DNA of 12,529 nucleotides from a virus (IMGVR_UViG_2671180699_000002); one strand, 5' to 3'. Numbered from the stretch's first letter, positions 126-12,529 are shown. The notes: a model not told the origin generated them from the letters alone. Made by a program: numbers and translations.

Positions 126-135
126 NNNNNNNNNN
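126..135. other. Run of 10 N (assembly gap or masked bases)
   Basis: Literal n characters in the sequence, lying between the ydfU-like stop (136-138) and the next minus-strand gene. Confidence 0.99.
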
Positions 136-1185
136 TTAGGCCAGCACACCAATTGCCAGCGCGTGATCGATAAATCGAAAAATCAGCTCCAGTTGGGAGC
201 CATACTTCTCTTCAAATGCCACGGTATCCGTATGCAGTTCGTCGTGATGCTTTCTGCATAAAGGCAACACAAAAAGATCATGTGCTTTGGTTCCCATTCC
301 GCCCTGCCCGTGACCAATCAGATGATGCGGATCGTCGGCTGGCATACCGCAGCAAGCACACGGCTGTGTCTTCACCCAGCGAGTGTATTTCTCCTTAACC
401 CAGCGGCGACGTTTAGGTAGCTTCATGAAAGATTCCGGAGACTCAGGATCAACGGTGATGCTTACCACCGTCCTTTCCTGTAGTGGGTGTTGTTCCTGGT
501 GGGCGTGAGGCAACAGTGCAAGATTTTTTGTGCGCTGTTTCAATATGCTGGTGGCGGTCTGCTCTCCCGGTACGATGTCGCTTTCGCGGTACATTGAGCG
601 GATTTTTTCCGCTGGTAATCCCAGCGAGCGACGTAATACCGCTTCAGGTAGCGCATCCGCCACCTGATTTCGGACCGCCCACCAGGATAATTCAGCCAGA
701 GATAATTCACGCTCCTGCGTACCGCTTATTGCGTGACCGATGACGTCAATCATCCATGCTGACAGGTTTTGATGAGCAAGTTGCTCGAGTGATTCGGATG
801 TCTGGTCACGCAGCTGGTTGTCGCAGTGCCAGCACAACACCATTGCGCCGGTACCATAACGGTGAATGACGGTTTCACTGTGGTGATAATCGCCGTGTGG
901 CCACTGGCAGGATTTAATATGGCGCAACAGCCAGTCAGACAATGCACCAGCACCACCAGCAGCACGAATCACCCGTGCGTTACTGAAAAACGGCAGCAAT
1001 GTTTTGTCTTCCACCAGCGGCTGGCGAACGGCAGGAACGACCCCGGACGGCAGATTACGCATGCTTTTCGGTTCCGGCTCCACCAGTACCCGGGTATTGT
1101 GGAATACCGGCATGGATTCACGGCCCGGCTTAACGATCACCACCCCGAGTTCCGGTACCAGAACAGGTCGAAGTAATACCCGCAC
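136..1185 (-). CDS. ydfU: YdfU-like prophage protein, 349 aa, with Cys/His-rich C-terminal region (DUF968-type, possible HNH-like nuclease)
   Basis: Long minus-strand ORF with GTG start at 1185..1183 preceded by GGAGG (SD) 4 nt upstream; stop TAA at 138..136. C-terminal CACCG...HH...CRKHH cluster suggests metal binding. The 349-aa length and position beside rem/hok match my recollection of K-12 Qin ydfU (not verified by alignment). Confidence 0.8.
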   Translation of the reverse strand: MRVLLRPVLVPELGVVIVKPGRESMPVFHNTRVLVEPEPKSMRNLPSGVVPAVRQPLVEDKTLLPFFSNARVIRAAGGAGALSDWLLRHIKSCQWPHGDYHHSETVIHRYGTGAMVLCWHCDNQLRDQTSESLEQLAHQNLSAWMIDVIGHAISGTQERELSLAELSWWAVRNQVADALPEAVLRRSLGLPAEKIRSMYRESDIVPGEQTATSILKQRTKNLALLPHAHQEQHPLQERTVVSITVDPESPESFMKLPKRRRWVKEKYTRWVKTQPCACCGMPADDPHHLIGHGQGGMGTKAHDLFVLPLCRKHHDELHTDTVAFEEKYGSQLELIFRFIDHALAIGVLA

Positions 1186-1536: not shown

Positions 1537-1564
1537 GAAAAAACAAAACCCGCCGAAGCGGGTT
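1537..1564 (-). terminator. Rho-independent terminator of the hok transcript
   Basis: On the minus strand AACCCGC-TTCG-GCGGGTT (7-bp stem, tetraloop) is followed directly by TTTTGTTTTTT. It lies about 70 nt downstream of the hok stop. Confidence 0.8.
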
Positions 1565-1632: not shown

Positions 1633-1788
1633 TTACTCCTCAGGTTCGTAAGCTGTGAAGACAGCGACCTCCGTCTGGCCGGTTCGGATTCGTACCTCGC
1701 AGAGGTCTTTCCTCGTTACCAGTGCCGTCACTATGACGGTTAAACAGATGACGATCAGGGCGATTAACATCGCCTTTTGCTGCTTCAT
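1633..1788 (-). CDS. hokD: Hok-family type I toxin (small membrane-depolarising peptide), 51 aa
   Basis: Hand translation of the minus strand gives MKQQKAMLIALIVICLTVIVTALVTRKDLCEVRIRTGQTEVAVFTAYEPEE, which matches my recollection of E. coli HokD/RelF. ATG at 1788..1786, TAA at 1635..1633, SD AAGGAG about 10 nt upstream. The ORF is under 60 aa and so absent from the supplied track. Confidence 0.93.
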   Translation of the reverse strand: MKQQKAMLIALIVICLTVIVTALVTRKDLCEVRIRTGQTEVAVFTAYEPEE

Positions 1789-2046
1789 AGCCTGCTTCTC
1801 CTTGACCTTTCGGTCCGTAAGAGGCTAATCTCTATGTGTCGCATAGATATGGCCTCAGATTAATGTTAAGCGTCTTGCAGGACGCGTAATGTTAACTGGG
1901 GCTTTTCTCTATCTGCCTTTTGGTGTTCATGCCTGAGACAGATAGCCTCAAGCACCCGCAGTCATTCTACTTAACTAAGATTTCCCCGCAAACCGTTTTT
2001 GTCCGGCACAGTAAATATCCAACTAAACCAATGGCGTTCGCTGTAT
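1789..2046 (-). promoter_or_regulatory. hok mRNA leader region (about 260 nt) with a coupled upstream ORF and a long hairpin
   Basis: Non-coding stretch between the stop of the 59-aa membrane gene and the hok ATG. Contains a 19-codon uORF (1844..1785) whose TGA overlaps the hok ATG (ATGA), and an imperfect hairpin at 1821-1856 that covers the uORF start codon. Confidence 0.5.
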
Positions 2047-2226
2047 TTACCGCCAGTATTCAATGCACATGACCGCCATGAACACCCCTAAAAAAAGGGC
2101 ATTTATATATCCAAATATTAATATCAAAACATCAACTTTTTCCATATACCTTGCTGTGAAGATGATGGGCATACATGATACGAACAACCAGAACGCAACA
2201 AACAAAAACTGCAATGCGTTTTTCAT
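2047..2226 (-). CDS. Small hydrophobic membrane protein, 59 aa, two predicted TM helices
   Basis: ATG at 2226..2224 with AGGAGG 5 nt upstream; MKNALQFLFVAFWLFVSCMPIIFTARYMEKVDVLILIFGYINALFLGVFMAVMCIEYWR; stop TAA at 2049..2047. The longer 72-aa track ORF has no SD at its first start. Confidence 0.6.
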   Translation of the reverse strand: MKNALQFLFVAFWLFVSCMPIIFTARYMEKVDVLILIFGYINALFLGVFMAVMCIEYWR

Positions 2227-5173: not shown

Positions 5174-5599
5174 TCAATGTACTGCCACAGCATTTCCTGC
5201 CGGGCCACCACGGTTCATCTGATTGAAACCGGCGATTGCCACTGCGACAAAATCATCAGCGTCTCTCACCAGTCGCTCCCGCGTCTCCACCAGCTCCCGA
5301 AAATAAGCTGAACTGTGGCTGCGCATTCTGGCCACCAGCAAAGGTGGCATTGCCTTTTCGATCGCTGGTAACAACGCCTGAATTTTTTCAACTGCATCAG
5401 GGGTGTCTTTCTCTACCCAGCGGAAAATTTTCTGGGTATTGCGAGCCAGGGCTTCCGGATGGCTGTCGTCATACAGTTCCGGGAACGTCATTCCCAGCTC
5501 GAAATACGCTTTGGTAATTTTCGCAGCCGGTACTTTTTCGCCGTCCGGATGCGCCCAGGCATTCATCGCCATGCGGATGTGTTCATGCTTGATTTTCAT
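5174..5599 (-). CDS. CII-like / YdaT-family regulatory protein, 141 aa
   Basis: ATG at 5599..5597 overlaps the TGA of the cro-like gene (ATGA). N-terminus MKIKHEHI resembles my recollection of Rac YdaT, recalled as a functional CII analogue. Position cro - cII-like - O-like. Confidence 0.75.
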   Translation of the reverse strand: MKIKHEHIRMAMNAWAHPDGEKVPAAKITKAYFELGMTFPELYDDSHPEALARNTQKIFRWVEKDTPDAVEKIQALLPAIEKAMPPLLVARMRSHSSAYFRELVETRERLVRDADDFVAVAIAGFNQMNRGGPAGNAVAVH

Positions 5600-5826
5600 G
5601 AATCCCCCCCTTGGTTAGAAGGCGGATTATGATCAGAACCGGGAATGACAACCGTCGGTATGTGTAACTCATATTTGAGCGCCCCGGCAGTGACTGCCTG
5701 AATTAGCAACGCCCATTTCCACGGAACCTCTTCCCCCCACATGCTGACTGTGGTTTTTGACGTTCCTAGAGCTGCGGCTGTTTTAACAACTCCGCCAAAA
5801 TAGCCTAATACTTCTGATTTTTTCAT
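5596..5826 (-). CDS. Cro-like HTH repressor (DicC/YdaS family), 76 aa from ATG 5826
   Basis: Divergent from the CI-like gene. GGAG precedes ATG 5826; an alternative ATG at 5838 would add MERL. The pattern resembles DicC as I recall it, but is not identical. Confidence 0.8.
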   Translation of the reverse strand: MKKSEVLGYFGGVVKTAAALGTSKTTVSMWGEEVPWKWALLIQAVTAGALKYELHIPTVVIPGSDHNPPSNQGGDS

Positions 5827-5838
5827 GAGTCGCTCCAT

Positions 5839-5917
5839 AAAACTGAACGTCAAAAGTTTAATAATCAAAACCAAAGAAAGTCAAGAAACAAAACCATCTG
5901 TGTTTTAAAATCAAAAC
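5839..5917. promoter_or_regulatory. Divergent immunity switch (PR-like and PRM-like promoters with candidate operators)
   Basis: Two 16-bp near-identical sites, GTTTAATAATCAAAAC (5856-5871) and GTTTTAAAATCAAAAC (5902-5917), each with inverted GTTT(T)/AAAAC half-sites. A minus-strand TTGACT (5884..5879) and TATTAA (5863..5858) pair is a candidate PR. A plus-strand TAAAAT (5906-5911) sits 6 nt before the cI ATG, which has no SD. Confidence 0.55.
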
Positions 5918-6556
5918 ATGAGCAAGCAAACTATATCTGAACGCATAACCCAACGTATGCATGCGCTAAACCTGAAAGGCAAAGACCTTGTCAATGGCAC
6001 TGGCGCATCAAAAGGCTCCGTAAGTCAATGGATGAACGGTGGAGGAGCGCCGTCCTCGCGTTACATAAGTTCACTGGCAAAAATATTGAAAGTAAACGAA
6101 AATTGGCTTCTTAATGGAGGAGAGTTAAATACAGGTGATTCGCTTGATCTATCTTTACCGCCGATAAAAACGGTTCCGCTACTATCACTTCAGCAGGCAG
6201 CAAGCTGGAGTGATTATATGAAAAATTCCTCAATAACCTCTTGTGTGCAGCTTGTCGGAGAAATCCCGGTCAATACCTTTGCAGTTGTTCTAGAGAGTGA
6301 CAGTATGTCAACATCTGGTGGGGGAGTTTCCATCCCAAATGGTTCAACAGTTTTTGTTGATCCCGATCGAACCGTACAACCAGGAAATATTGTCCTTGCC
6401 TTACCCAAAGGGACCACAACACCTGTCATTCGTAAACTGGAGATAGAAGGGCCGGATATTCTTTTAGTCCCCACGAATCCTCGCTACCCTTCAATTATGC
6501 TGGATGATCTATCTTGCATATTGGGCGTATGCTTTAAAATTCAACAAGATATTTAA
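5918..6556 (+). CDS. CI-like prophage repressor: N-terminal HTH plus C-terminal S24 (LexA-like) autopeptidase domain, 212 aa
   Basis: N-terminal HTH region (KGKDLVNGTGASKGSVSQWMNG); C-terminal ESDSMS serine motif and downstream RKLE lysine, typical of LexA/CI/UmuD self-cleaving proteins. Divergent from the cro-like gene. Confidence 0.9.
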   Translation: MSKQTISERITQRMHALNLKGKDLVNGTGASKGSVSQWMNGGGAPSSRYISSLAKILKVNENWLLNGGELNTGDSLDLSLPPIKTVPLLSLQQAASWSDYMKNSSITSCVQLVGEIPVNTFAVVLESDSMSTSGGGVSIPNGSTVFVDPDRTVQPGNIVLALPKGTTTPVIRKLEIEGPDILLVPTNPRYPSIMLDDLSCILGVCFKIQQDI

Positions 6557-6620: not shown

Positions 6621-6669
6621 AATGTTTTGATAAAAAAACATTGACCTGGAAAGTTCGTCTTTCTAAACT
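6621..6669 (+). promoter_or_regulatory. Candidate pL/PdicB-like promoter with overlapping palindromic operator
   Basis: Inverted repeat AATGTTTT-gataaa-AAAACATT (6621-6642) overlaps a TTGACC -35 (6641-6646); 17-bp spacer; TAAACT -10 (6664-6669). Located between the cI stop and ydfA. Confidence 0.45.
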
Positions 6670-6848
6670 TCATTCATTCCCTCACCCCATCCTACAGAAT
6701 GCAGGGCAATACTTCGAGTTACCAGGCAGTGGTCAGGGGTTAAGTAGCCAGCCCGAGGCGTAAGAACATGACGGCAGGGTTCAACTTTAATAACTATGCA
6801 GCAGGTTTTTGTTCCGCTACCCCGGCGTTAAGGGGAAATGAGGTCAGC

Positions 6849-7004
6849 ATGGATACTATCGATCTTGGCAACAACGAATCTCTGGTGTACGGCGTGTTTC
6901 CAAACCAGGACGGCACCTTCACCGCAATGACGTATACCAAAAGCAAAACGTTTAAAACCGAAAATGGTGCCCGTCGCTGGCTGGAAAGAAACTCAGGTGA
7001 GTGA
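6849..7004 (+). CDS. ydfA: YdfA-like small protein, 51 aa
   Basis: ATG at 6849 with GAGG 5 nt upstream: MDTIDLGNNESLVYGVFPNQDGTFTAMTYTKSKTFKTENGARRWLERNSGE. The 51-aa length and position match Qin ydfA as I recall it. The track ORF starts in frame at 6768 (78 aa), a possible alternative start. Confidence 0.65.
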   Translation: MDTIDLGNNESLVYGVFPNQDGTFTAMTYTKSKTFKTENGARRWLERNSGE

Positions 7005-7005
7005 T

Positions 7006-7134
7006 ATGGATTTTGACACAATCATGGAAAAGGCTTACGAAGAATACTTCGAAGGCCTTGCCGAAGGCGAAGAAGCTCACAGCTTCAACGAATTTAAACA
7101 GGCGCTTTCCAGTTCGGCAAAATCTAACGGCTGA
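7006..7134 (+). CDS. ydfB: YdfB-like small acidic protein, 42 aa
   Basis: Hand-translated: MDFDTIMEKAYEEYFEGLAEGEEAHSFNEFKQALSSSAKSNG. AGGTGA SD 5 nt upstream; starts 2 nt after the ydfA stop. The 42-aa length and position match Qin ydfB as recalled. Below the track cutoff. Confidence 0.6.
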   Translation: MDFDTIMEKAYEEYFEGLAEGEEAHSFNEFKQALSSSAKSNG

Positions 7135-7163: not shown

Positions 7164-7382
7164 ATGCAGAAACGAGAACCCGTCATCATCGCGCCAGACT
7201 ATACCGATGATGAACTTTATGAGTGGATGCGCCAGAAAATTAATGCAGCGCAGGATCTGAAATGGGCCAATGAAGCCAGGGCTAAGCAGGCTGAAAATCT
7301 GTCCGCTCTGGAGCAGGATATCACCAATCTGGAAAAAGCAGCGGCATTAAGCATTGCCAGAATGATTACATACCCGCGTTAA
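7164..7382 (+). CDS. ydfC: YdfC-like protein, 72 aa
   Basis: ATG at 7164 with GAGGAA 5 nt upstream; length and position match Qin ydfC as recalled. Confidence 0.8.
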   Translation: MQKREPVIIAPDYTDDELYEWMRQKINAAQDLKWANEARAKQAENLSALEQDITNLEKAAALSIARMITYPR

Positions 7383-7722
7383 TAGCTAACCAACGAAGCT
7401 AAGGTTGGTAATTAAGGAGTTCTCCACGGGTGAGGTGGAGTGCGTGCGCCGGACACGGGTGAGCATCCGGCACTGACAGTTTACTGAAAGGATATTTCCC
7501 TGAAAAGTCAGACCATAACGCGAAAGCGCACGGCGAGGTAGCTGGTTCATAGATAGCCTGTCGTTAAATTTTCGTCGACCGTGCGCTTCCGGTTGTGGCA
7601 ACCCGCGAAATGGTGCGGCGGTAAGTATGGCGGGGTTATTTCTTCCCCGTTGAGGACACCGGGTTGTCAGGTTGACCATACGCTTAAGTGACAACCCCGC
7701 TGCAACGCCCTCTGTTATCAAT

Positions 7723-7775
7723 TTTCTGGTGACGTTTGGCGGTATCAGTTTTACTCCGTGACTGCTCTGCCGCCC
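7723..7775 (+). ncRNA. dicF: DicF small regulatory RNA (cell-division inhibitor; base-pairs with ftsZ mRNA)
   Basis: The sequence TTTCTGGTGACGTTTGGCGGTATCAGTTTTACTCCGTGACTGCTCTGCCGCCC matches my recollection of the 53-nt DicF RNA. It ends in a GGCGG...CCGCC hairpin followed by TTTTT, and sits between ydfC and dicB as in Qin. Confidence 0.88.
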
Positions 7776-7780
7776 TTTTT
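7738..7780 (+). terminator. DicF 3' stem-loop and U-tract (intrinsic terminator)
   Basis: GGCGG (7738-7742) pairs with CCGCC (7770-7774), with inner CAGT/ACTG pairing; followed by TTTTT at 7776-7780. Confidence 0.75.
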
Positions 7781-7949
7781 AAAGTGAATTTTGTGATGTG
7801 GTGAATGCGGCTGAGCGCACGCGGAACAGTTAAAACCAAAAACAGTGTTATGGGTGGATTCTCTGTATCCGGCGTTAATTGTTAACTGGTTAACGTCACC
7901 TGGAGGCACCAGGCACTGCATCACAAAATTCATTGTTGAGGACGCGATA

Positions 7950-8138
7950 ATGAAAACGTTATTACCAAACGTTAATACGTCTGAAGGTTGTTTTGAAATT
8001 GGTGTCACTATCAGTAACCCAGTATTTACTGAAGATGCCATTAACAAGAGAAAACAAGAACGGGAGCTATTAAATAAAATATGCATTGTTTCAATGCTGG
8101 CTCGTTTACGTCTGATGCCAAAAGGATGTGCACAATGA
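7950..8138 (+). CDS. dicB: DicB cell-division inhibitor (acts through MinC), 62 aa
   Basis: MKTLLPNVNTSEGCFEIGVTISNPVFTEDAINKRKQERELLNKICIVSMLARLRLMPKGCAQ matches my recollection of DicB. GAGGA SD 7 nt upstream. The track ORF 7845-8138 is a spurious N-terminal extension. Confidence 0.92.
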   Translation: MKTLLPNVNTSEGCFEIGVTISNPVFTEDAINKRKQERELLNKICIVSMLARLRLMPKGCAQ

Positions 8139-8326
8139 ATTCAGCATTTGTGCTTGTTCTGACAGTTTTTCTTGTTTCCGGAGAGCCAGTTGATATTGCA
8201 GTCAGTGTTCACAGGACAATGCAGGAGTGTATGACTGCAGCAACCGAACAGAAAATTCCCGGTAACTGTTACCCGGTCGATAAAGTTATTCACCAGGATA
8301 ATATCGAAATCCCGGCAGGTCTTTAA
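8135..8326 (+). CDS. ydfD: YdfD-like small protein with N-terminal TM helix, 63 aa (lysis-inducing in K-12 as I recall)
   Basis: ATG at 8135 overlaps the dicB TGA (ATGA): MNSAFVLVLTVFLVSGEPVDIAVS... Length and position match Qin ydfD as recalled. Confidence 0.8.
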   Translation: MNSAFVLVLTVFLVSGEPVDIAVSVHRTMQECMTAATEQKIPGNCYPVDKVIHQDNIEIPAGL

Positions 8327-8418
8327 AACAGTTCCGTAATAAATATCCGGTTTCATTCTTATATGCCAGCAATGGCAGGGATTTGTTCATCCTTAAATCT
8401 GTCATGAGGTTAAAACAA

Positions 8419-10890
8419 ATGAGTAAAGTCTTTATTTGCGCCGCTATTCCTGACGAACTGGCAACAAGGGAAGAAGGCGCTGTGGCTGTAGCCACAGCCA
8501 TTGAAGCTGGCGACGAACGCCGTGCTCGAGCAAAATTTCACTGGCAATTCCTGGAACATTATCCGGCTGCTCAGGACTGCGCTTATAAATTTATTGTCTG
8601 CGAGGATAAACCTGGCATACCCCGCCCTGCCCTCGATTCATGGGATGCTGAATATATGCAGGAAAACCGCTGGGATGAGGAGTCTGCTTCTTTTGTCCCG
8701 GTTGAGACTGAATCCGATCCGATGAACGTCACTTTTGACAAGCTGGCCCCTGAAGTACAGAACGCTGTCATGGTTAAGTTCGACACATGTGAAAACATCA
8801 CCGTTGATATGGTTATTAGCGCACAGGAATTGTTGCAGGAAGACATGGCAACATTCGACGGACATATCGTTGAAGCGTTGATGAAAATGCCAGAAGTTAA
8901 CGCCATGTATCCGGAGCTTAAGTTGCACGCCATTGGGTGGGTTAAGCATAAATGTATTCCTGGTGCTAAATGGCCCGAAATTCAGGCAGAGATGCGCATC
9001 TGGAAAAAACGTCGCGAAGGTGAACGCAAGGAAACCGGAAAATACACGTCTGTTGTTGATCTCGCCCGCGCCAGAGCCAATCAACAGTACACTGAAAATT
9101 CAACAGGAAAAATCAGCCCGGTCATTGCTGCCATTCATCGCGAATACAAGCAGACATGGAAAACACTGGATGACGAACTGGCCTACGCTCTCTGGCCTGG
9201 TGATGTGGATGCCGGAAACATTGACGGCAGCATCCATCGCTGGGCAAAAAATGAAGTTATCGACAACGACCGCGAAGACTGGAAGCGTATCTCGGCATCA
9301 ATGCGCAAACAGCCTGATGCCCTTCGCTACGACCGCCAAACTATTTTTGGCCTTGTCCGTGAGCGTCCGATCGACATTCACAAAGATCCCGTAGCACTGA
9401 ACAAATATATCTGCGAATACCTGACGACAAAGGGCGTGTTTGAGAATGAAGAAACAGACCTGGGCACTGTTGATGTTCTCCAGTCATCAGAAACACAAAC
9501 TGATGCAGTGGAAACTGAGGTATCTGATATCCCAAAAAATGAAACCGCGCCGGAAGCTGAACCATCTGTAGAGCGTGAGGGGCCGTTCTATTTCCTCTTC
9601 GCAGATAAGGACGGAGAAAAATACGGTCGCGCAAACAAACTTTCTGGTCTGGATAAGGCACTGGCTGCTGGCGCCACTGAAATCACAAAAGAAGAATATT
9701 TTGCCCGAAAAAATGGCACATACACGGGCTTACCGCAAAATGTAGATACCGCTGAAGATTCAGAACAACCAGAGCCGATAAAAGTTACCGCTGACGAAGT
9801 AAACAAAATTATGCAGGCAGCCAATATCATCCAGCCTGACGCCGATAAGTTGCTTGCTGCATCACGTGGTGAATTTGTTGAAGGGATTAGTGACCCGAAT
9901 GATCCGAAATGGGTTAAGGGGATCCAGACCCGCGATTCTGTGAACCAGAACCAGCATGAATCGGAACGGAACTACCAAAAAGCGGAACAAAACAGCCCAA
10001 ATGCGTTACAAAACGAGCCAGAAACGAAACAGCCTGAATCAGTGGCGCAACAGGAAGTGGAAAAAGTCTGCACCGCCTGCGGTCAGACCGGCGGCGGCAA
10101 CTGCCCTGATTGTGGCGCGGTAATGGGCGACGCAACATACCAGGAAACATTCGATGAAGAGTATCAGATTGAAGTTCAGGAAGATGATCCGGAGGAAATG
10201 GAAGGCGCTGAACATCCACACAAGGAGAACACTGGCGGCAATCAGCATCACGATAGCGATAATGAAACTGGCGAGACGGCAGATCACTCAATTAAGGTGA
10301 ACGGTCATCAAGAAATCACATCCACCAGCAGGACGTGTGACCATCTAATGATCGACCTTGAAACCATGGGAAAAAATCCTGATGCCCCGATCATCTCAAT
10401 AGGTGCAATATTTTTCGATCCGCAAACCGGAGATATGGGACCGGAATTTAGTAAGACTATCGATCTGGAAACTGCTGGCGGAGTCATTGATCGGGACACC
10501 ATTAAATGGTGGCTTAAGCAATCACGCGAAGCGCAATCTGCCATTATGACCGATGAAATCCCGTTAGATGATGCACTGTTACAATTGTGGGAATTTATCG
10601 ACGAAAACTCCGGTGAATTTTTTGTTCAGGTCTGGGGAAATGGAGCCAACTTCGACAACACGATTTTGCGCCGTTCATACGAACGGCAGGGGATCCCCTG
10701 CCCGTGGCGTTACTACAACGATCGCGATGTACGCACAATCGTTGAGCTGGGGAAAGCCATAGACTTCGATGCCAGAACGGCTATTCCATTCGAAGGTGAG
10801 CGCCATAATGCACTTGATGACGCCCGTTACCAGGCAAAATACGTTTCAGTTATCTGGCAAAAACTGATCCCGAGTCAGGCTGATTCTTAA
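8419..10890 (+). CDS. Large multi-domain protein, 823 aa: uncharacterised N-terminal region, acidic linker, CxxC...CxxC zinc-ribbon-like motif, C-terminal DEDDh (DnaQ-like) 3'-5' exonuclease domain
   Basis: ATG at 8419 with GAGG 9 nt upstream (the track ORF begins at an upstream TTG, 8383). C-terminal motifs: Exo I IDLETMG, Exo II GNGANFDNT, Exo III ERHNALDDARYQ. Zinc-ribbon-like CTACGQTGGGNCPDCG. Occupies the exo/recE position next to xis-int. Confidence 0.88.
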   Translation: MSKVFICAAIPDELATREEGAVAVATAIEAGDERRARAKFHWQFLEHYPAAQDCAYKFIVCEDKPGIPRPALDSWDAEYMQENRWDEESASFVPVETESDPMNVTFDKLAPEVQNAVMVKFDTCENITVDMVISAQELLQEDMATFDGHIVEALMKMPEVNAMYPELKLHAIGWVKHKCIPGAKWPEIQAEMRIWKKRREGERKETGKYTSVVDLARARANQQYTENSTGKISPVIAAIHREYKQTWKTLDDELAYALWPGDVDAGNIDGSIHRWAKNEVIDNDREDWKRISASMRKQPDALRYDRQTIFGLVRERPIDIHKDPVALNKYICEYLTTKGVFENEETDLGTVDVLQSSETQTDAVETEVSDIPKNETAPEAEPSVEREGPFYFLFADKDGEKYGRANKLSGLDKALAAGATEITKEEYFARKNGTYTGLPQNVDTAEDSEQPEPIKVTADEVNKIMQAANIIQPDADKLLAASRGEFVEGISDPNDPKWVKGIQTRDSVNQNQHESERNYQKAEQNSPNALQNEPETKQPESVAQQEVEKVCTACGQTGGGNCPDCGAVMGDATYQETFDEEYQIEVQEDDPEEMEGAEHPHKENTGGNQHHDSDNETGETADHSIKVNGHQEITSTSRTCDHLMIDLETMGKNPDAPIISIGAIFFDPQTGDMGPEFSKTIDLETAGGVIDRDTIKWWLKQSREAQSAIMTDEIPLDDALLQLWEFIDENSGEFFVQVWGNGANFDNTILRRSYERQGIPCPWRYYNDRDVRTIVELGKAIDFDARTAIPFEGERHNALDDARYQAKYVSVIWQKLIPSQADS

Positions 10891-10962: not shown

Positions 10963-11214
10963 ATGAGCGAAGTAATCATGATTGTCTCTCCCGGCAAATG
11001 GGTATCCGAAGAGCAGTTAATTGCGCTGAAAGGAATAAAAAAAGGTACGTTAAAAAAGGCCCGGGAAAAATCGTTTATGGAAGGAAGGGAATATAAGCAT
11101 GTCGCTCATGACGGTATGCCATGGGATAACAGTCCATGCTTTTACAACCTGGAAGAAATTGATCGCTGGATTGAGCGCCAGGCATCAGCAAGACCAAGAC
11201 GTCATCTTACTTGA
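10963..11214 (+). CDS. xis: Excisionase (Xis-like), 83 aa
   Basis: Small protein immediately upstream of int, containing a GREY motif (MEGREYKHV) like the DGREY of lambda Xis-type excisionases. SD is weak; an alternative internal start is possible. Confidence 0.75.
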   Translation: MSEVIMIVSPGKWVSEEQLIALKGIKKGTLKKAREKSFMEGREYKHVAHDGMPWDNSPCFYNLEEIDRWIERQASARPRRHLT

Positions 11215-11248: not shown

Positions 11249-12529
11249 ATGAAATATCCGACAGGCGTGGAAAACCATGGAGGGAAATTACGTATCTGGT
11301 TTGTTTATAAAGGCGTAAGAGTCAGGGAAAACCTGGGGGTTCCTGACACAGCAAAAAACAGGCGCGTTGCAGGTGAGCTACGCGCCTCTGTTTGTTACGC
11401 AATAAAAACTGGTGTTTTCGACTATGCAAAACAGTTTCCCTCCTCACGCAATCTGGAAAAATTTGGTGAGACCCGACAAGATTTAACCATAAAAGAACTG
11501 GCTGAAAAATTTCTGGCACTGAAAGAAACTGAAGTCGCAAAAACATCACTCAACACATACCGTGCCGTCATCAAAAATATCCTGAGCATAATCGGTGAAA
11601 AAAATCTTGCCTCATCGATTAATAAAGAAAAATTACTGGAGGTTCGTAAAGAGCTACTGACTGGATACCAGATCCCCAAAAGTAACTATATTGTTACACA
11701 ACCAGGGAGATCGGCTGTAACTGTAAATAATTACATGACAAATCTTAACGCCGTGTTCCAGTTTGGTGTTGATAACGGTTACCTGGCAGATAACCCGTTT
11801 AAGGGGATCTCGCCATTAAAGGAATCAAGAACCATTCCGGATCCTCTTTCGCGGGAGGAATTCATCCGTCTTATCGATGCGTGCAGAAATCAGCAAGCCA
11901 AAAATTTATGGTGTGTTTCTGTTTATACTGGCGTTCGCCCTGGTGAGCTGTGTGCACTTGGATGGGAGGACATAGATCTGAAAAATGGAACAATGATGAT
12001 CAGGAGAAATTTAGCAAAAGACCGTTTCACGGTACCAAAAACACAGGCGGGAACCAATCGGGTCATTCATCTTATTAAGCCAGCAATCGACGCTCTCCGG
12101 AGTCAGATGACATTAACGAGACTGAGCAAAGAGCATATCATTGATGTTCACCTCAGAGAGTATGGCAGAACAGAAAAACATAAATGCACCTTTGTTTTTC
12201 AACCTGAAGTGTCAGCGAGAGTAAAAAATTATGGTGACCATTTTACCGTTGACTCAATAAGGCAGATGTGGGACGCAGCGATAAAACGTGCCGGACTCCG
12301 CCATCGAAAATCATATCAGTCGAGACATACTTATGCCTGCTGGTCGCTGACAGCTGGTGCTAACCCGGCATTTATAGCAAACCAGATGGGCCATGCAGAT
12401 GCGCAAATGGTATTTCAGGTATACGGAAAATGGATGTCTGAAAACAATAATGCACAGGTAGCTTTGTTAAATACACAGTTAAGCGAGTTTGCCCCAACCA
12501 TGCCCCATAACGAAGCAATGAAAAATTAA
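11249..12529 (+). CDS. int: Tyrosine site-specific integrase (lambda Int family), 426 aa
   Basis: Catalytic-domain signatures: TGVRPGEL...W (Arg box), H-x-x-R (SRHTYAC), and LGH...VYGKW containing the presumptive catalytic Tyr. N-terminal arm-type region GKLRIWFVYKG. The track ORF starts 5 codons earlier at ATG 11234 with no SD. The stop is at the window end, so the att site lies beyond it. Confidence 0.93.
   Translation: MKYPTGVENHGGKLRIWFVYKGVRVRENLGVPDTAKNRRVAGELRASVCYAIKTGVFDYAKQFPSSRNLEKFGETRQDLTIKELAEKFLALKETEVAKTSLNTYRAVIKNILSIIGEKNLASSINKEKLLEVRKELLTGYQIPKSNYIVTQPGRSAVTVNNYMTNLNAVFQFGVDNGYLADNPFKGISPLKESRTIPDPLSREEFIRLIDACRNQQAKNLWCVSVYTGVRPGELCALGWEDIDLKNGTMMIRRNLAKDRFTVPKTQAGTNRVIHLIKPAIDALRSQMTLTRLSKEHIIDVHLREYGRTEKHKCTFVFQPEVSARVKNYGDHFTVDSIRQMWDAAIKRAGLRHRKSYQSRHTYACWSLTAGANPAFIANQMGHADAQMVFQVYGKWMSENNNAQVALLNTQLSEFAPTMPHNEAMKN

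What the first reader, a model, noticed from the sequence alone, without database searches (positions are those of the whole stretch)
7723..8326. Back-to-back host-killing functions (DicF, DicB, YdfD) on the same arm as the integrase, plus Hok on the other arm
DicB and YdfD are linked by an ATGA start/stop overlap. Together with DicF and Hok, the prophage carries at least four small products known or reported to block division or lyse the host, and possibly a fifth in the 59-aa membrane protein. All would be held silent by the single CI-like repressor. Such a load may act as abortive-infection or addiction machinery for the prophage.
Basis: established knowledge. Interest (0 to 1): 0.4.

Follow-up and report, generated by a model that had tools for sequence, protein, structure and literature searches.

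The report
Known Qin-prophage dicF-dicB-ydfD operon
This stretch is the well-studied dicF-dicB-ydfD cell-division-inhibitor operon of the E. coli Qin-type lambdoid prophage, identical to the laboratory K-12 copy, so the finding is correct but ordinary.

Summary
DicF (7724-7775), dicB (7950-8138) and ydfD (8135-8326) lie back to back on the + strand. An ATGA stop/start overlap sits at 8135-8138. The exonuclease, xis and int genes follow downstream, and hok (1633-1788, minus strand) lies on the other arm. The 604 bases are 100% identical to E. coli K-12 MG1655 and occur in 4638 of 5426 complete E. coli genomes, and also in isolated phages (Tritos, PhiR42_1, mEp460). DicB, YdfD and HokD proteins are identical to the characterised K-12 alleles.

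A repressor-controlled PL-type promoter plausibly silences dicF, dicB and ydfD: the same perfect palindrome sits at the cI/cro region and just upstream of the promoter. Hok, however, is a self-contained type I toxin unit with its own leader/sok region and terminator. Published work shows DicB blocks YdfD lysis and already shows DicB-dependent phage exclusion. No defence-system model matches.

Novelty: already known.

Side observation: a conserved, apparently pseudoknotted RNA domain of about 120 nt (7592-7712) precedes DicF-like terminators in lambdoid and P1/P7 phages. No Rfam family matches it.

The parts
5596..5826 (-). Cro-like repressor gene (P22_Cro family), first gene of the rightward arm
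   Evidence: Pfam P22_Cro 1.1e-15. GGAG 6 nt before the MKKSEV start.
5901..5918 (.). Candidate operator (OR-type): perfect palindrome TGTTTT-N6-AAAACA in the cI/cro intergenic region
   Evidence: One of only 2 exact matches in the window, with 0 expected in 200 shuffles. Inferred function.
5918..6556 (+). CI-like prophage repressor (HTH plus S24 peptidase domain)
   Evidence: Pfam Peptidase_S24 4.3e-13 and HTH_3. Best solved relative is lambda CI. Ser (ESDSM) and Lys (IRKL) are kept, but lambda Ala111-Gly112 aligns to Ala-Ala. That motif is conserved in homologues.
6623..6640 (.). Candidate operator (OL-type): the same perfect palindrome, abutting the -35 hexamer
6641..6669 (+). PL-type promoter candidate (TTGACC-17-TAAACT), the analogue of K-12 dicBp
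   Evidence: consensus match only. Homology to K-12 starts only at 6811, so the promoter and operator belong to the immunity module.
6849..7004 (+). ydfA (DUF1391)
   Evidence: Pfam DUF1391 1.7e-28. Identical to K-12 YdfA.
7006..7134 (+). ydfB
   Evidence: 42 aa, with 2 substitutions relative to K-12 YdfB.
7164..7382 (+). ydfC
   Evidence: Identical to K-12 YdfC. phrog_1744.
7592..7712 (+). Conserved structured RNA domain; 5' part of the known 190-nt long DicF species. It has a closing helix, two hairpins and a long helix interleaved with a candidate pseudoknot helix.
   Evidence: Covariance model R1 scores 152 bits here and 91-159 bits in about 135 phage or prophage loci, against at most 16 bits in unrelated DNA. 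95.8% of cells are paired, against 33-57% when partners are slid. 9 pairs change on both sides (1/500 shuffles). No Rfam family at E<=1.
7724..7775 (+). DicF sRNA with its terminator hairpin (U-run to 7780)
   Evidence: Rfam RF00039 76.7 bits. 100% identical to K-12.
7773..7982 (+). dicF-dicB spacer and dicB leader, with a sub-threshold resemblance to Rfam STnc100
   Evidence: 34.4 bits against a gathering score of 47, E 2.8e-5, full model length. Similar weak hits lie upstream of division-inhibitor-type genes in P1, P7 and phiSTEC1589.
7950..8138 (+). dicB, 62-aa cell-division inhibitor
   Evidence: Pfam DicB 1.9e-40 and NCBIfam 132.8 bits. Identical to K-12 DicB. GAGGA Shine-Dalgarno sequence.
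8135..8326 (+). ydfD, 63-aa lysis protein (DUF1482), whose start overlaps the dicB stop (ATGA at 8135-8138)
   Evidence: Pfam DUF1482 3.9e-26. Identical to K-12 YdfD. The overlap is conserved in 85/86 loci. N-terminal hydrophobic segment.
8419..10890 (+). Full-length exonuclease gene (the intact form of K-12 ydfE, which is cut by IS2)
   Evidence: Pfam Rv2179c-like 1.2e-66 at residues 654-825 of the 835-aa ORF that starts at 8383. EC32 and K-12 annotation.
10963..11214 (+). Excisionase
   Evidence: Pfam DUF1233 putative excisionase 1.6e-31.
11249..12529 (+). Tyrosine integrase (the prophage abuts rspB in related genomes)
   Evidence: Pfam Arm-DNA-bind_2 and Phage_integrase. Context in EC32.
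1633..1788 (-). hokD-type Hok toxin gene
   Evidence: Pfam HOK_GEF 1.2e-23. Identical to K-12 HokD.
1786..1957 (-). hok mRNA leader / sok region, including a 19-codon leader ORF (1785-1844) whose stop overlaps the hok ATG
   Evidence: Rfam RF01794 106.7 bits, full length. Absent from K-12 Qin and present in phage Tritos. Leader ORF read.
1547..1564 (-). Intrinsic terminator ending the hok transcription unit
2047..2226 (-). 59-aa ORF with two hydrophobic segments; function unknown and no evidence of toxicity
   Evidence: GGAGG Shine-Dalgarno sequence. Hydropathy. No Pfam, NCBIfam, PHROG or PADLOC hit. Only close Escherichia/Shigella homologues, several of them frameshifted. The region is in 1585/5426 genomes and none of the 12 records listed carries an annotation.

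Best explanation
The interval is the distal half of the early-left (PL-type, 'dicBF') operon of a Qin-family lambdoid prophage. The operon order is: promoter/operator, ydfA, ydfB, ydfC, a long structured untranslated RNA, the DicF sRNA (which ends in its own intrinsic terminator), a leader, dicB, ydfD, exonuclease, xis, int.

In the lysogen the CI-like repressor is inferred to bind the same palindromic operator at the cI/cro region and at the PL-type promoter, keeping the operon off.

When repression fails, the steps established for the identical K-12 sequence follow. [quoted passage not shown] DicF base-pairs with ftsZ, manX, xylR and pykA mRNAs. Transcripts that pass the DicF terminator express DicB, which with MinC and ZipA dissolves the Z ring and also disables ManYZ. 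They also express YdfD, which binds IspG and lyses dividing cells.

dicB and ydfD are translationally linked by the conserved ATGA overlap, so YdfD is made together with the protein that holds its lysis in check.

The module is therefore an early lytic 'host-takeover' block, in the same position as lambda kil. Its known side benefit is exclusion of ManYZ-dependent phages.

Hok on the other arm is a separate, self-regulated type I toxin-antitoxin unit.

Shown here: identity, layout, conservation of the overlap, presence in isolated phages, and the shared palindrome. Taken from the literature: targets and processing. Inferred: repressor binding, translational coupling and the takeover role.
For: 100% nucleotide identity of 7723-8326 to K-12. 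DicB, YdfD and HokD proteins identical to K-12. Family assignments.

The same gene order occurs in E. coli EC32 next to rspB, in K-12 Qin and in isolated phage Tritos, where DicF, dicB, ydfD and HokD are annotated. The 604-base interval matches isolated phage genomes in full: PhiR42_1 at 100%, and HannyBb and mEp460_ev081 at 96.5-98.7%.

The operator palindrome occurs only at the two regulatory regions, with 0 expected by chance, next to a promoter-like site.

The 4-nt overlap is kept in 85/86 loci, including diverged alleles, and an AAAGGA element 8-9 nt upstream is also kept.

Literature: dicBp is PL-like and repressed by DicA; RNase III/E processing; 1146-nt and 1608-nt transcripts (PMC10448788). 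DicB, MinC and ManYZ-dependent phage exclusion (PMC6832061). YdfD binds IspG, and its lysis is blocked by DicB (PMC8835842). DicF targets (PMC5069750).
Against: There are no expression data for this particular prophage.

Its immunity module differs from K-12: a CI/S24-type repressor instead of DicA, and no rem in the window. K-12 regulation therefore cannot simply be transferred.

The operator assignment rests on sequence alone, and only one perfect site lies at the PL-type promoter.

The repressor has Ala-Ala where lambda CI has its Ala-Gly cleavage bond, so SOS inducibility is uncertain.

How RNA polymerase passes the DicF terminator to reach dicB and ydfD is unknown.

The 'takeover' role during lytic growth has not been tested for any Qin-type phage, as far as the papers read here show.
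Confidence: 0.88

Rival explanations
1. The four or five small toxins form a common, CI-silenced abortive-infection or addiction arsenal. It kills the host when the prophage is lost or when another phage infects.
For: [quoted passage not shown] The dicBF operon is retained in 4638/5426 E. coli genomes despite its toxicity.
Against: Hok has its own leader/sok region and terminator and is not under the repressor. No PADLOC defence model matches any of the products. DicB protection works by blocking DNA entry, not by suicide (PMC6832061). DicB prevents YdfD lysis, so the effects are not additive (PMC8835842). Chromosomal hokA, hokB and hokC loci failed to give post-segregational killing in earlier work cited. 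No antitoxin partner for DicB or YdfD is present. The same module sits in fully functional phages, in the normal early-left position.
Confidence: 0.12
2. Domesticated host regulators. The module is kept mainly because DicF (and DicB) serve the bacterium as regulators of division and sugar metabolism in stationary phase, low oxygen or stress, independently of any phage life cycle.
For: DicF accumulates in stationary phase in K-12, and dicBp responds to urea and heat (PMC10448788). DicF copies promote low-oxygen virulence gene expression in O157:H7 (discussed in PMC6832061). The sequence is very widely retained, typically in two places per genome (median 2), including in defective prophages.
Against: In this window the prophage arm is intact, with full-length exonuclease, xis and int. 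The same block occurs in isolated phages. A phage function is therefore sufficient to explain it. DicF is degenerate in some dicB-ydfD loci and undetectable in others.
Confidence: 0.3
3. Neutral mosaic cargo. The genes are simply carried along with the recombination and integration arm and have no selected function in this element.
For: Lambdoid genomes are mosaics, and the immunity region next to the block has been swapped.
Against: Reading frames, Shine-Dalgarno elements and the 4-nt overlap are preserved across alleles down to 70% identity. The untranslated RNA upstream shows compensatory changes. The proteins have specific host targets (papers cited above).
Confidence: 0.03

Closest known systems
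[quoted passage not shown]
   Same: Nucleotide-identical over dicF-dicB-ydfD, and 99.3% identical from ydfA into the exonuclease gene. Same order, same integration neighbourhood (rspB) and same HokD protein.
   Different: Here the arm is intact: a full-length exonuclease, xis and int, with no IS2. The immunity module is a CI/S24-type repressor instead of DicA/DicC with the Rem antirepressor. relBE is absent and hok keeps its own leader/sok region.
Isolated temperate phages Tritos, PhiR42_1, HannyBb and mEp460_ev081
   Same: The same dicF-dicB-ydfD block at 96.5-100% identity. In Tritos, whose annotation was read, it lies in the same place between the immunity region and exonuclease-xis-int, with HokD on the other arm.
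   Different: Different immunity and replication modules; the window as a whole matches at 60-77% coverage.
Lambda kil and Rac kilR (division inhibitors in the PL operon)
   Same: A small host-division inhibitor expressed from the repressor-controlled early-left operon (established knowledge).
   Different: No sequence relationship was tested or expected. DicB acts through MinC/ZipA. The Qin-type block adds an sRNA and a lysis protein.
hok/sok of plasmid R1 (type I toxin-antitoxin)
   Same: A Hok-family toxin, a conserved structured leader, a coupled leader ORF and its own terminator.
   Different: Located in a prophage. The leader ORF is only 19 codons. The Sok promoter and killing activity were not tested. 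Chromosomal hok loci are reported not to give post-segregational killing.
Phage P1/P7 ban-operon leader with its annotated 'dicF-like region'
   Same: It shares the structured RNA domain found at 7592-7712 (91-96 bits with model R1), directly downstream of a C1-repressor-controlled promoter.
   Different: The sequence after the domain differs from DicF (no Rfam DicF hit). It is followed by tRNA genes and tciA/terB-type genes, not by dicB-ydfD.

Membership tests
DicF sRNA (Rfam RF00039) | Covariance-model score at or above the curated gathering score over the full model | tested here: met
   76.7 bits against 48, model positions 1-52/52.
DicF sRNA (Rfam RF00039) | Same sequence as the experimentally characterised K-12 DicF, including the target-pairing 5' part and the terminator hairpin with U-run | tested here: met
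   100.0% identity to K-12 over 7723-8326. Hairpin and TTTTT read.
DicF sRNA (Rfam RF00039) | [quoted passage not shown] | not testable with these tools
   Known for the identical K-12 sequence (PMC10448788, PMC5069750).
DicB (Pfam PF05358 / NCBIfam NF049927) | Profile match above the curated cut-off over the full length | tested here: met
   Pfam 136.8 bits against 27; NCBIfam 132.8 against 100; residues 1-62/62. Identical to K-12 DicB.
DicB (Pfam PF05358 / NCBIfam NF049927) | MinC-dependent inhibition of the Z ring | not testable with these tools
   Literature for the identical protein (PMC6832061).
YdfD / DUF1482 (Pfam PF07358) | Profile match above the cut-off; N-terminal hydrophobic segment | tested here: met
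   91.1 bits against 25. Hydropathy above 1.6 for windows starting at residues 1-7. Identical to K-12 YdfD.
YdfD / DUF1482 (Pfam PF07358) | IspG binding and division-dependent lysis | not testable with these tools
   PMC8835842 for the identical protein.
[quoted passage not shown] | Hok/Gef family toxin | tested here: met
   Pfam HOK_GEF 82.9 bits against 22. Identical to HokD.
[quoted passage not shown] | Conserved structured hok leader / sok region upstream of the toxin | tested here: met
   Rfam RF01794 106.7 bits against 59, full length. K-12 Qin gives no such match.
[quoted passage not shown] | mok-type leader ORF translationally coupled to hok; antisense Sok promoter | tested here: inconclusive
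   A 19-codon ORF (1785-1844, minus strand) ends in an ATGA that overlaps the hok start. The consensus scan found no promoter on either strand in 1500-2400.
Lambdoid CI / LexA-type (S24) cleavable repressor | N-terminal HTH plus C-terminal S24 domain with the Ser/Lys dyad | tested here: met
   Pfam HTH_3 and Peptidase_S24. ESDSM and IRKL align to lambda CI Ser149 and Lys192.
Lambdoid CI / LexA-type (S24) cleavable repressor | Ala-Gly (or Cys-Gly) scissile bond | tested here: not met
   Lambda QA-G aligns to QA-A (LQQAASW). The same motif is present in all homologues down to 84% identity. The consequence for cleavage is unknown.
Known anti-phage defence / abortive-infection systems (PADLOC-DB) | Match of any component to a defence-system model | tested here: not met
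   No hit for DicB, YdfD, Hok, the 59-aa ORF or their neighbours. Only a weak DEDDh domain hit in the exonuclease.
Toxin-antitoxin 'addiction' module formed by dicB/ydfD | A toxin paired with a cognate, less stable antitoxin gene or RNA in the same unit | tested here: not met
   No antitoxin family was found beside dicB or ydfD. Antisense ORFs have no family match. DicB counteracts YdfD lysis only indirectly, by stopping division (PMC8835842).

The most novel reading that the evidence does not exclude
The most novel reading concerns the ~120-nt RNA domain just upstream of DicF (7592-7712). It has a closing helix, two hairpins and an interleaved, pseudoknot-like pair of helices. On this reading it is a discrete functional RNA module, not a passive precursor segment.

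The domain is shared by Qin-type, cdtI-type and Salmonella lambdoid phages and by the P1/P7 ban leader. In every lambdoid sequence type sampled, a variable single-stranded linker and a different intrinsic-terminator hairpin follow it (P1/P7 carry a short hairpin with a U-run). This suggests a family of modular prophage sRNAs built as 'conserved 5' domain + variable seed + terminator'.

Alternatively, it could be a processing or antitermination element that decides how much transcription reaches dicB-ydfD.
Probability: 0.3. Interest if true: 0.45.

Novelty: already known. Interest (0 to 1): 0.1.

Why it matters
As stated, the finding adds nothing new. The operon, its repressor control, its toxicity, its spread among E. 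coli prophages and DicB-dependent phage exclusion are all published.

Its modest value is as a natural, apparently intact version of the Qin early-left arm with a different (CI/S24-type) immunity module and a complete hok leader. In such a version the phage-side role of DicF, DicB and YdfD could be tested during real induction.

The only lead with some discovery value is the conserved structured RNA upstream of DicF. If functional, it would explain how DicF-type sRNAs are made, or how transcription passes the DicF terminator to reach the toxic genes.

Tried and rejected
Those loci later served as negative controls, scoring at most 16 bits with model R1.

(2) PADLOC gave no defence-system match.

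(3) ARAGORN found no tRNA or tmRNA, so the RNA domain is not tRNA-like by that test.

(4) ORFs antisense to dicF, dicB and ydfD (7751-8086, 8141-8356, 7386-7721) and the N-terminally extended DicB and YdfD frames have no independent family support. They were rejected as genes.

(5) The 59-aa ORF has no family in four libraries. Homologues are only near-identical Escherichia/Shigella sequences, several with frameshifted C-termini. The 'fifth toxin' idea is left unsupported.

(6) The consensus promoter scan found nothing in the hok region. A weak TTGCGG-16-TAGAAT upstream of the leader start was seen only by eye.

(7) The YdfD search in viral contigs returned only 98-100% identical copies. Diverged alleles had to be reached through the protein database.

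(8) I tried to reconcile the published transcript lengths and position numbers with K-12 coordinates in order to place the dicBp start. The numbering did not fit unambiguously, so I dropped it.

Full report
**What is there**

The window is a slice of a Qin-family lambdoid prophage running from a ydfU-like gene to the stop codon of the integrase. Its best whole-window match is E. coli EC32 (96% coverage, 97.9% identity). There the integrase abuts rspB, the Qin attachment neighbourhood of K-12.

Inside the reported interval:
- Rfam places DicF at 7724-7775 on the + strand (76.7 bits against a gathering score of 48).
- dicB is at 7950-8138 (Pfam DicB 1.9e-40; NCBIfam 132.8 bits against a cut-off of 100).
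- ydfD is at 8135-8326 (Pfam DUF1482 3.9e-26).
- The ATGA overlap is at 8135-8138.

Downstream on the same strand lie a full-length exonuclease gene (8419-10890), an excisionase (10963-11214) and a tyrosine integrase (to 12529). On the minus strand, beyond the cro-, cII- and replication-type genes, lies hok at 1633-1788.

**How ordinary it is**

The 604 bases are 100.0% identical to E. coli K-12 MG1655 1649382-1649985. They match 4638 of 5426 complete E. coli genomes, 3779 of them over at least 80% of the length, with a median of two places per genome. DicB, YdfD and HokD are identical at the amino-acid level to the K-12 proteins on which the experiments were done.

The block is also present in isolated phage genomes: PhiR42_1 (100%), Tritos (98.8%), HannyBb, mEp460_ev081 and several vB_Eco phages. 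In Tritos the whole layout is the same and is annotated as such: HokD on one arm; CI, three small ORFs, DicF, dicB, ydfD, exonuclease, xis and int on the other.

Relative to K-12, this copy differs only outside the interval:
- The exonuclease and integrase are intact, with no IS2.
- The immunity and replication modules are unrelated.
- relBE and rem are absent.

**Regulation by the repressor**

The CI-like protein (5918-6556) has an HTH and an S24 domain. Its closest solved relative is lambda CI.

A perfect palindrome, TGTTTT-N6-AAAACA, occurs exactly twice in 12.5 kb, with none in 200 shuffles. One copy is at 5901-5918 in the cI/cro intergenic region. The other is at 6623-6640, abutting the -35 hexamer of a TTGACC-17-TAAACT promoter-like site upstream of ydfA.

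Homology to K-12 begins only at 6811. The promoter and operator therefore travel with the immunity module, as expected for a PL-type promoter. In K-12 the corresponding promoter dicBp is PL-like and repressed by DicA (PMC10448788). Repressor control of ydfABC-dicF-dicB-ydfD is thus well supported by analogy and by the shared operator, but it remains an inference for this element.

One caution applies. The repressor keeps the catalytic Ser and Lys but has Ala-Ala where lambda CI has its Ala-Gly scissile bond. This is conserved among its homologues, so direct SOS cleavage is uncertain.

**Hok is not part of that circuit**

Upstream of hok there is a full-length match to the Rfam hok-leader/sok family (106.7 bits). 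A 19-codon leader ORF has a stop codon that overlaps the hok ATG. An intrinsic terminator follows the gene.

K-12 Qin, where relBE replaces this region, gives no such match. Phage Tritos does. This is a self-contained type I toxin-antitoxin unit controlled at the RNA level.

**The toxins are not simply additive**

The literature for the identical sequences shows the following:
- DicB acts through MinC on the Z ring and on ManYZ. Brief induction protects against phages that inject through ManYZ (PMC6832061).
- YdfD binds IspG and lyses cells, but the lysis is prevented when DicB or SulA is co-expressed (PMC8835842).

I found that the 4-nt dicB/ydfD overlap is kept in 85 of 86 related loci. These include alleles with DicB at 85-87% and YdfD at 70-75% identity and a different junction context. 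An AAAGGA element 8-9 nt upstream is also kept. The pair is therefore a conserved, probably translationally coupled unit in which the lysis protein is made together with the factor that restrains it.

DicF is less tightly linked. In some dicB-ydfD loci it is degenerate (38.7 bits). In others it is undetectable, and a minus-strand DUF1883 gene is called in the stretch upstream of dicB.

**Abortive infection or addiction**

None of the products matches a PADLOC defence model. The known DicB effect is exclusion at DNA entry, not suicide. No antitoxin accompanies dicB or ydfD.

The block sits in the standard early-left position of functional phages, where lambda carries kil. The best reading is an early host-takeover block with a side benefit of superinfection exclusion. 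A host-domesticated regulatory role for DicF is a compatible second layer.

**The 59-aa ORF (2047-2226, minus strand)**

It has a strong GGAGG ribosome-binding site and two hydrophobic segments. Its region occurs in 1585 genomes, and none of the 12 records listed carries an annotation there.

It has no family in Pfam, NCBIfam, PHROGs or PADLOC. All homologues are close Escherichia/Shigella sequences, several with frameshifted ends. It may be a real small membrane protein, but nothing indicates toxicity.

**A side finding: structured RNA upstream of DicF**

The 'long untranslated region' upstream of DicF contains a ~120-nt core (7592-7712). This core is nearly invariant in loci whose neighbouring proteins have diverged. 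It recurs in phage cdtI, in Salmonella phage F1055 and in the C1-controlled ban leader of P1 and P7, next to P1's annotated 'dicF-like region'.

A covariance model built on 30 variants gives:
- 152 bits in the window;
- 91-159 bits in about 135 phage or prophage loci;
- at most 16 bits in about 0.5 Mb of unrelated DNA.

On the model-fitted alignment:
- 95.8% of cells form pairs, against 33-57% when partners are slid by 1-3 columns.
- Nine pairs change on both sides (1 of 500 shuffles reaches this).
- The covariation score exceeds all shuffles.

One helix that was not in the model (window 7626-7631 with 7682-7687) interleaves with the long helix. It is 100% paired, with one compensatory change, which suggests a pseudoknot.

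The caveats are real. The copies were collected with a sequence pattern that fixed parts of two helices. Many copies are closely related. The alignment was fitted to the nested helices.

No Rfam family matches at E<=1. In K-12 the model hit starts at the position expected for the 5' end of the RNase III-generated 190-nt DicF species (PMC10448788), so this domain is the 5' part of that known RNA. In all eight lambdoid sequence types sampled, a variable linker and a different GC-rich hairpin with a U-run follow the domain. The P1/P7 type has only a short hairpin with a U-run, and in the Salmonella F1055 type the extracted stretch ends within the T-run. Whether the domain is a processing platform, part of a modular sRNA family or an antitermination element cannot be decided here.

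**Verdict**

The finding is a correct recognition of a textbook prophage operon in an intact Qin-type element. It is already known and of low interest. One of its regulatory claims (Hok under CI) is not supported, and its functional speculation is largely already addressed in print.

Noticed in passing
window 7592-7712 (+): A conserved structured RNA domain of about 120 nt lies just 5' of DicF. It has a closing helix, two hairpins and a long helix interleaved with a candidate pseudoknot helix. It is shared with cdtI-type and Salmonella lambdoid phages and with the P1/P7 ban leader. In all eight lambdoid sequence types sampled, a variable linker and a different terminator hairpin follow it. No Rfam family matches. 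It corresponds to the 5' part of the known 190-nt DicF species.
   Followed up: yes
window 7773-7982 (+): The dicF-dicB spacer gives a full-length but sub-threshold match to Rfam STnc100 (34.4 bits against 47). Similar weak matches lie upstream of tciA/terB in P1 and P7 and of a small division-inhibitor-type gene in phiSTEC1589. This hints at a shared leader element.
   Followed up: partly
window 1786-1957 (-) and 1785-1844 (-): hok here keeps a complete leader/sok region that K-12 Qin lacks (relBE sits there instead). A 19-codon leader ORF ends in an ATGA that overlaps the hok start codon.
   Followed up: partly
window 1648-1650 (-): Hok codon 47 is TAC in a UACG context. A 2026 preprint reports A-to-I editing (Tyr to Cys) of hokC, hokD and hokE mRNAs at the corresponding cysteine position, linked to toxicity. 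The motif is present here.
   Followed up: no
window 2047-2226 (-): A 59-aa ORF with two hydrophobic segments and a GGAGG ribosome-binding site. Its region is in 1585 of 5426 complete E. coli genomes, and none of the 12 records listed carries an annotation. Homologues occur only in Escherichia/Shigella, and several are frameshifted.
   Followed up: partly
window 5918-6556 (+), residues ~92-96: The CI-like repressor keeps the S24 Ser/Lys dyad but has Ala-Ala (LQQAASW) where lambda CI has its Ala-Gly autocleavage bond. The motif is conserved in homologues down to 84% identity, so it is a family trait rather than a recent defect.
   Followed up: partly
window 5901-5918 and 6623-6640: The perfect palindrome TGTTTT-N6-AAAACA occurs only at the cI/cro intergenic region and next to the PL-type promoter. 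These are candidate operators of this immunity type.
   Followed up: partly
L087 and L088 (about 2140-2816); L084 2586-2634: Some dicB-ydfD loci have no detectable DicF: L087 and L088 give no Rfam DicF match, and a minus-strand DUF1883 gene is called in the stretch upstream of dicB. L084 carries a degenerate DicF (38.7 bits). All three keep the upstream RNA domain and the ATGA overlap.
   Followed up: partly
window 8419-10890 (+): An intact 823-aa form of the exonuclease gene that is truncated by IS2 in K-12 (ydfE). Only the C-terminal ~170 residues match a family (Rv2179c-like 3'-5' exoribonuclease). The first ~650 residues have no Pfam match here.
   Followed up: no
window 126-135: A run of ten N (masked bases) lies just beyond the 3' end of the listed ydfU-like (DUF968) ORF (136-1185, minus strand).
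   Followed up: no
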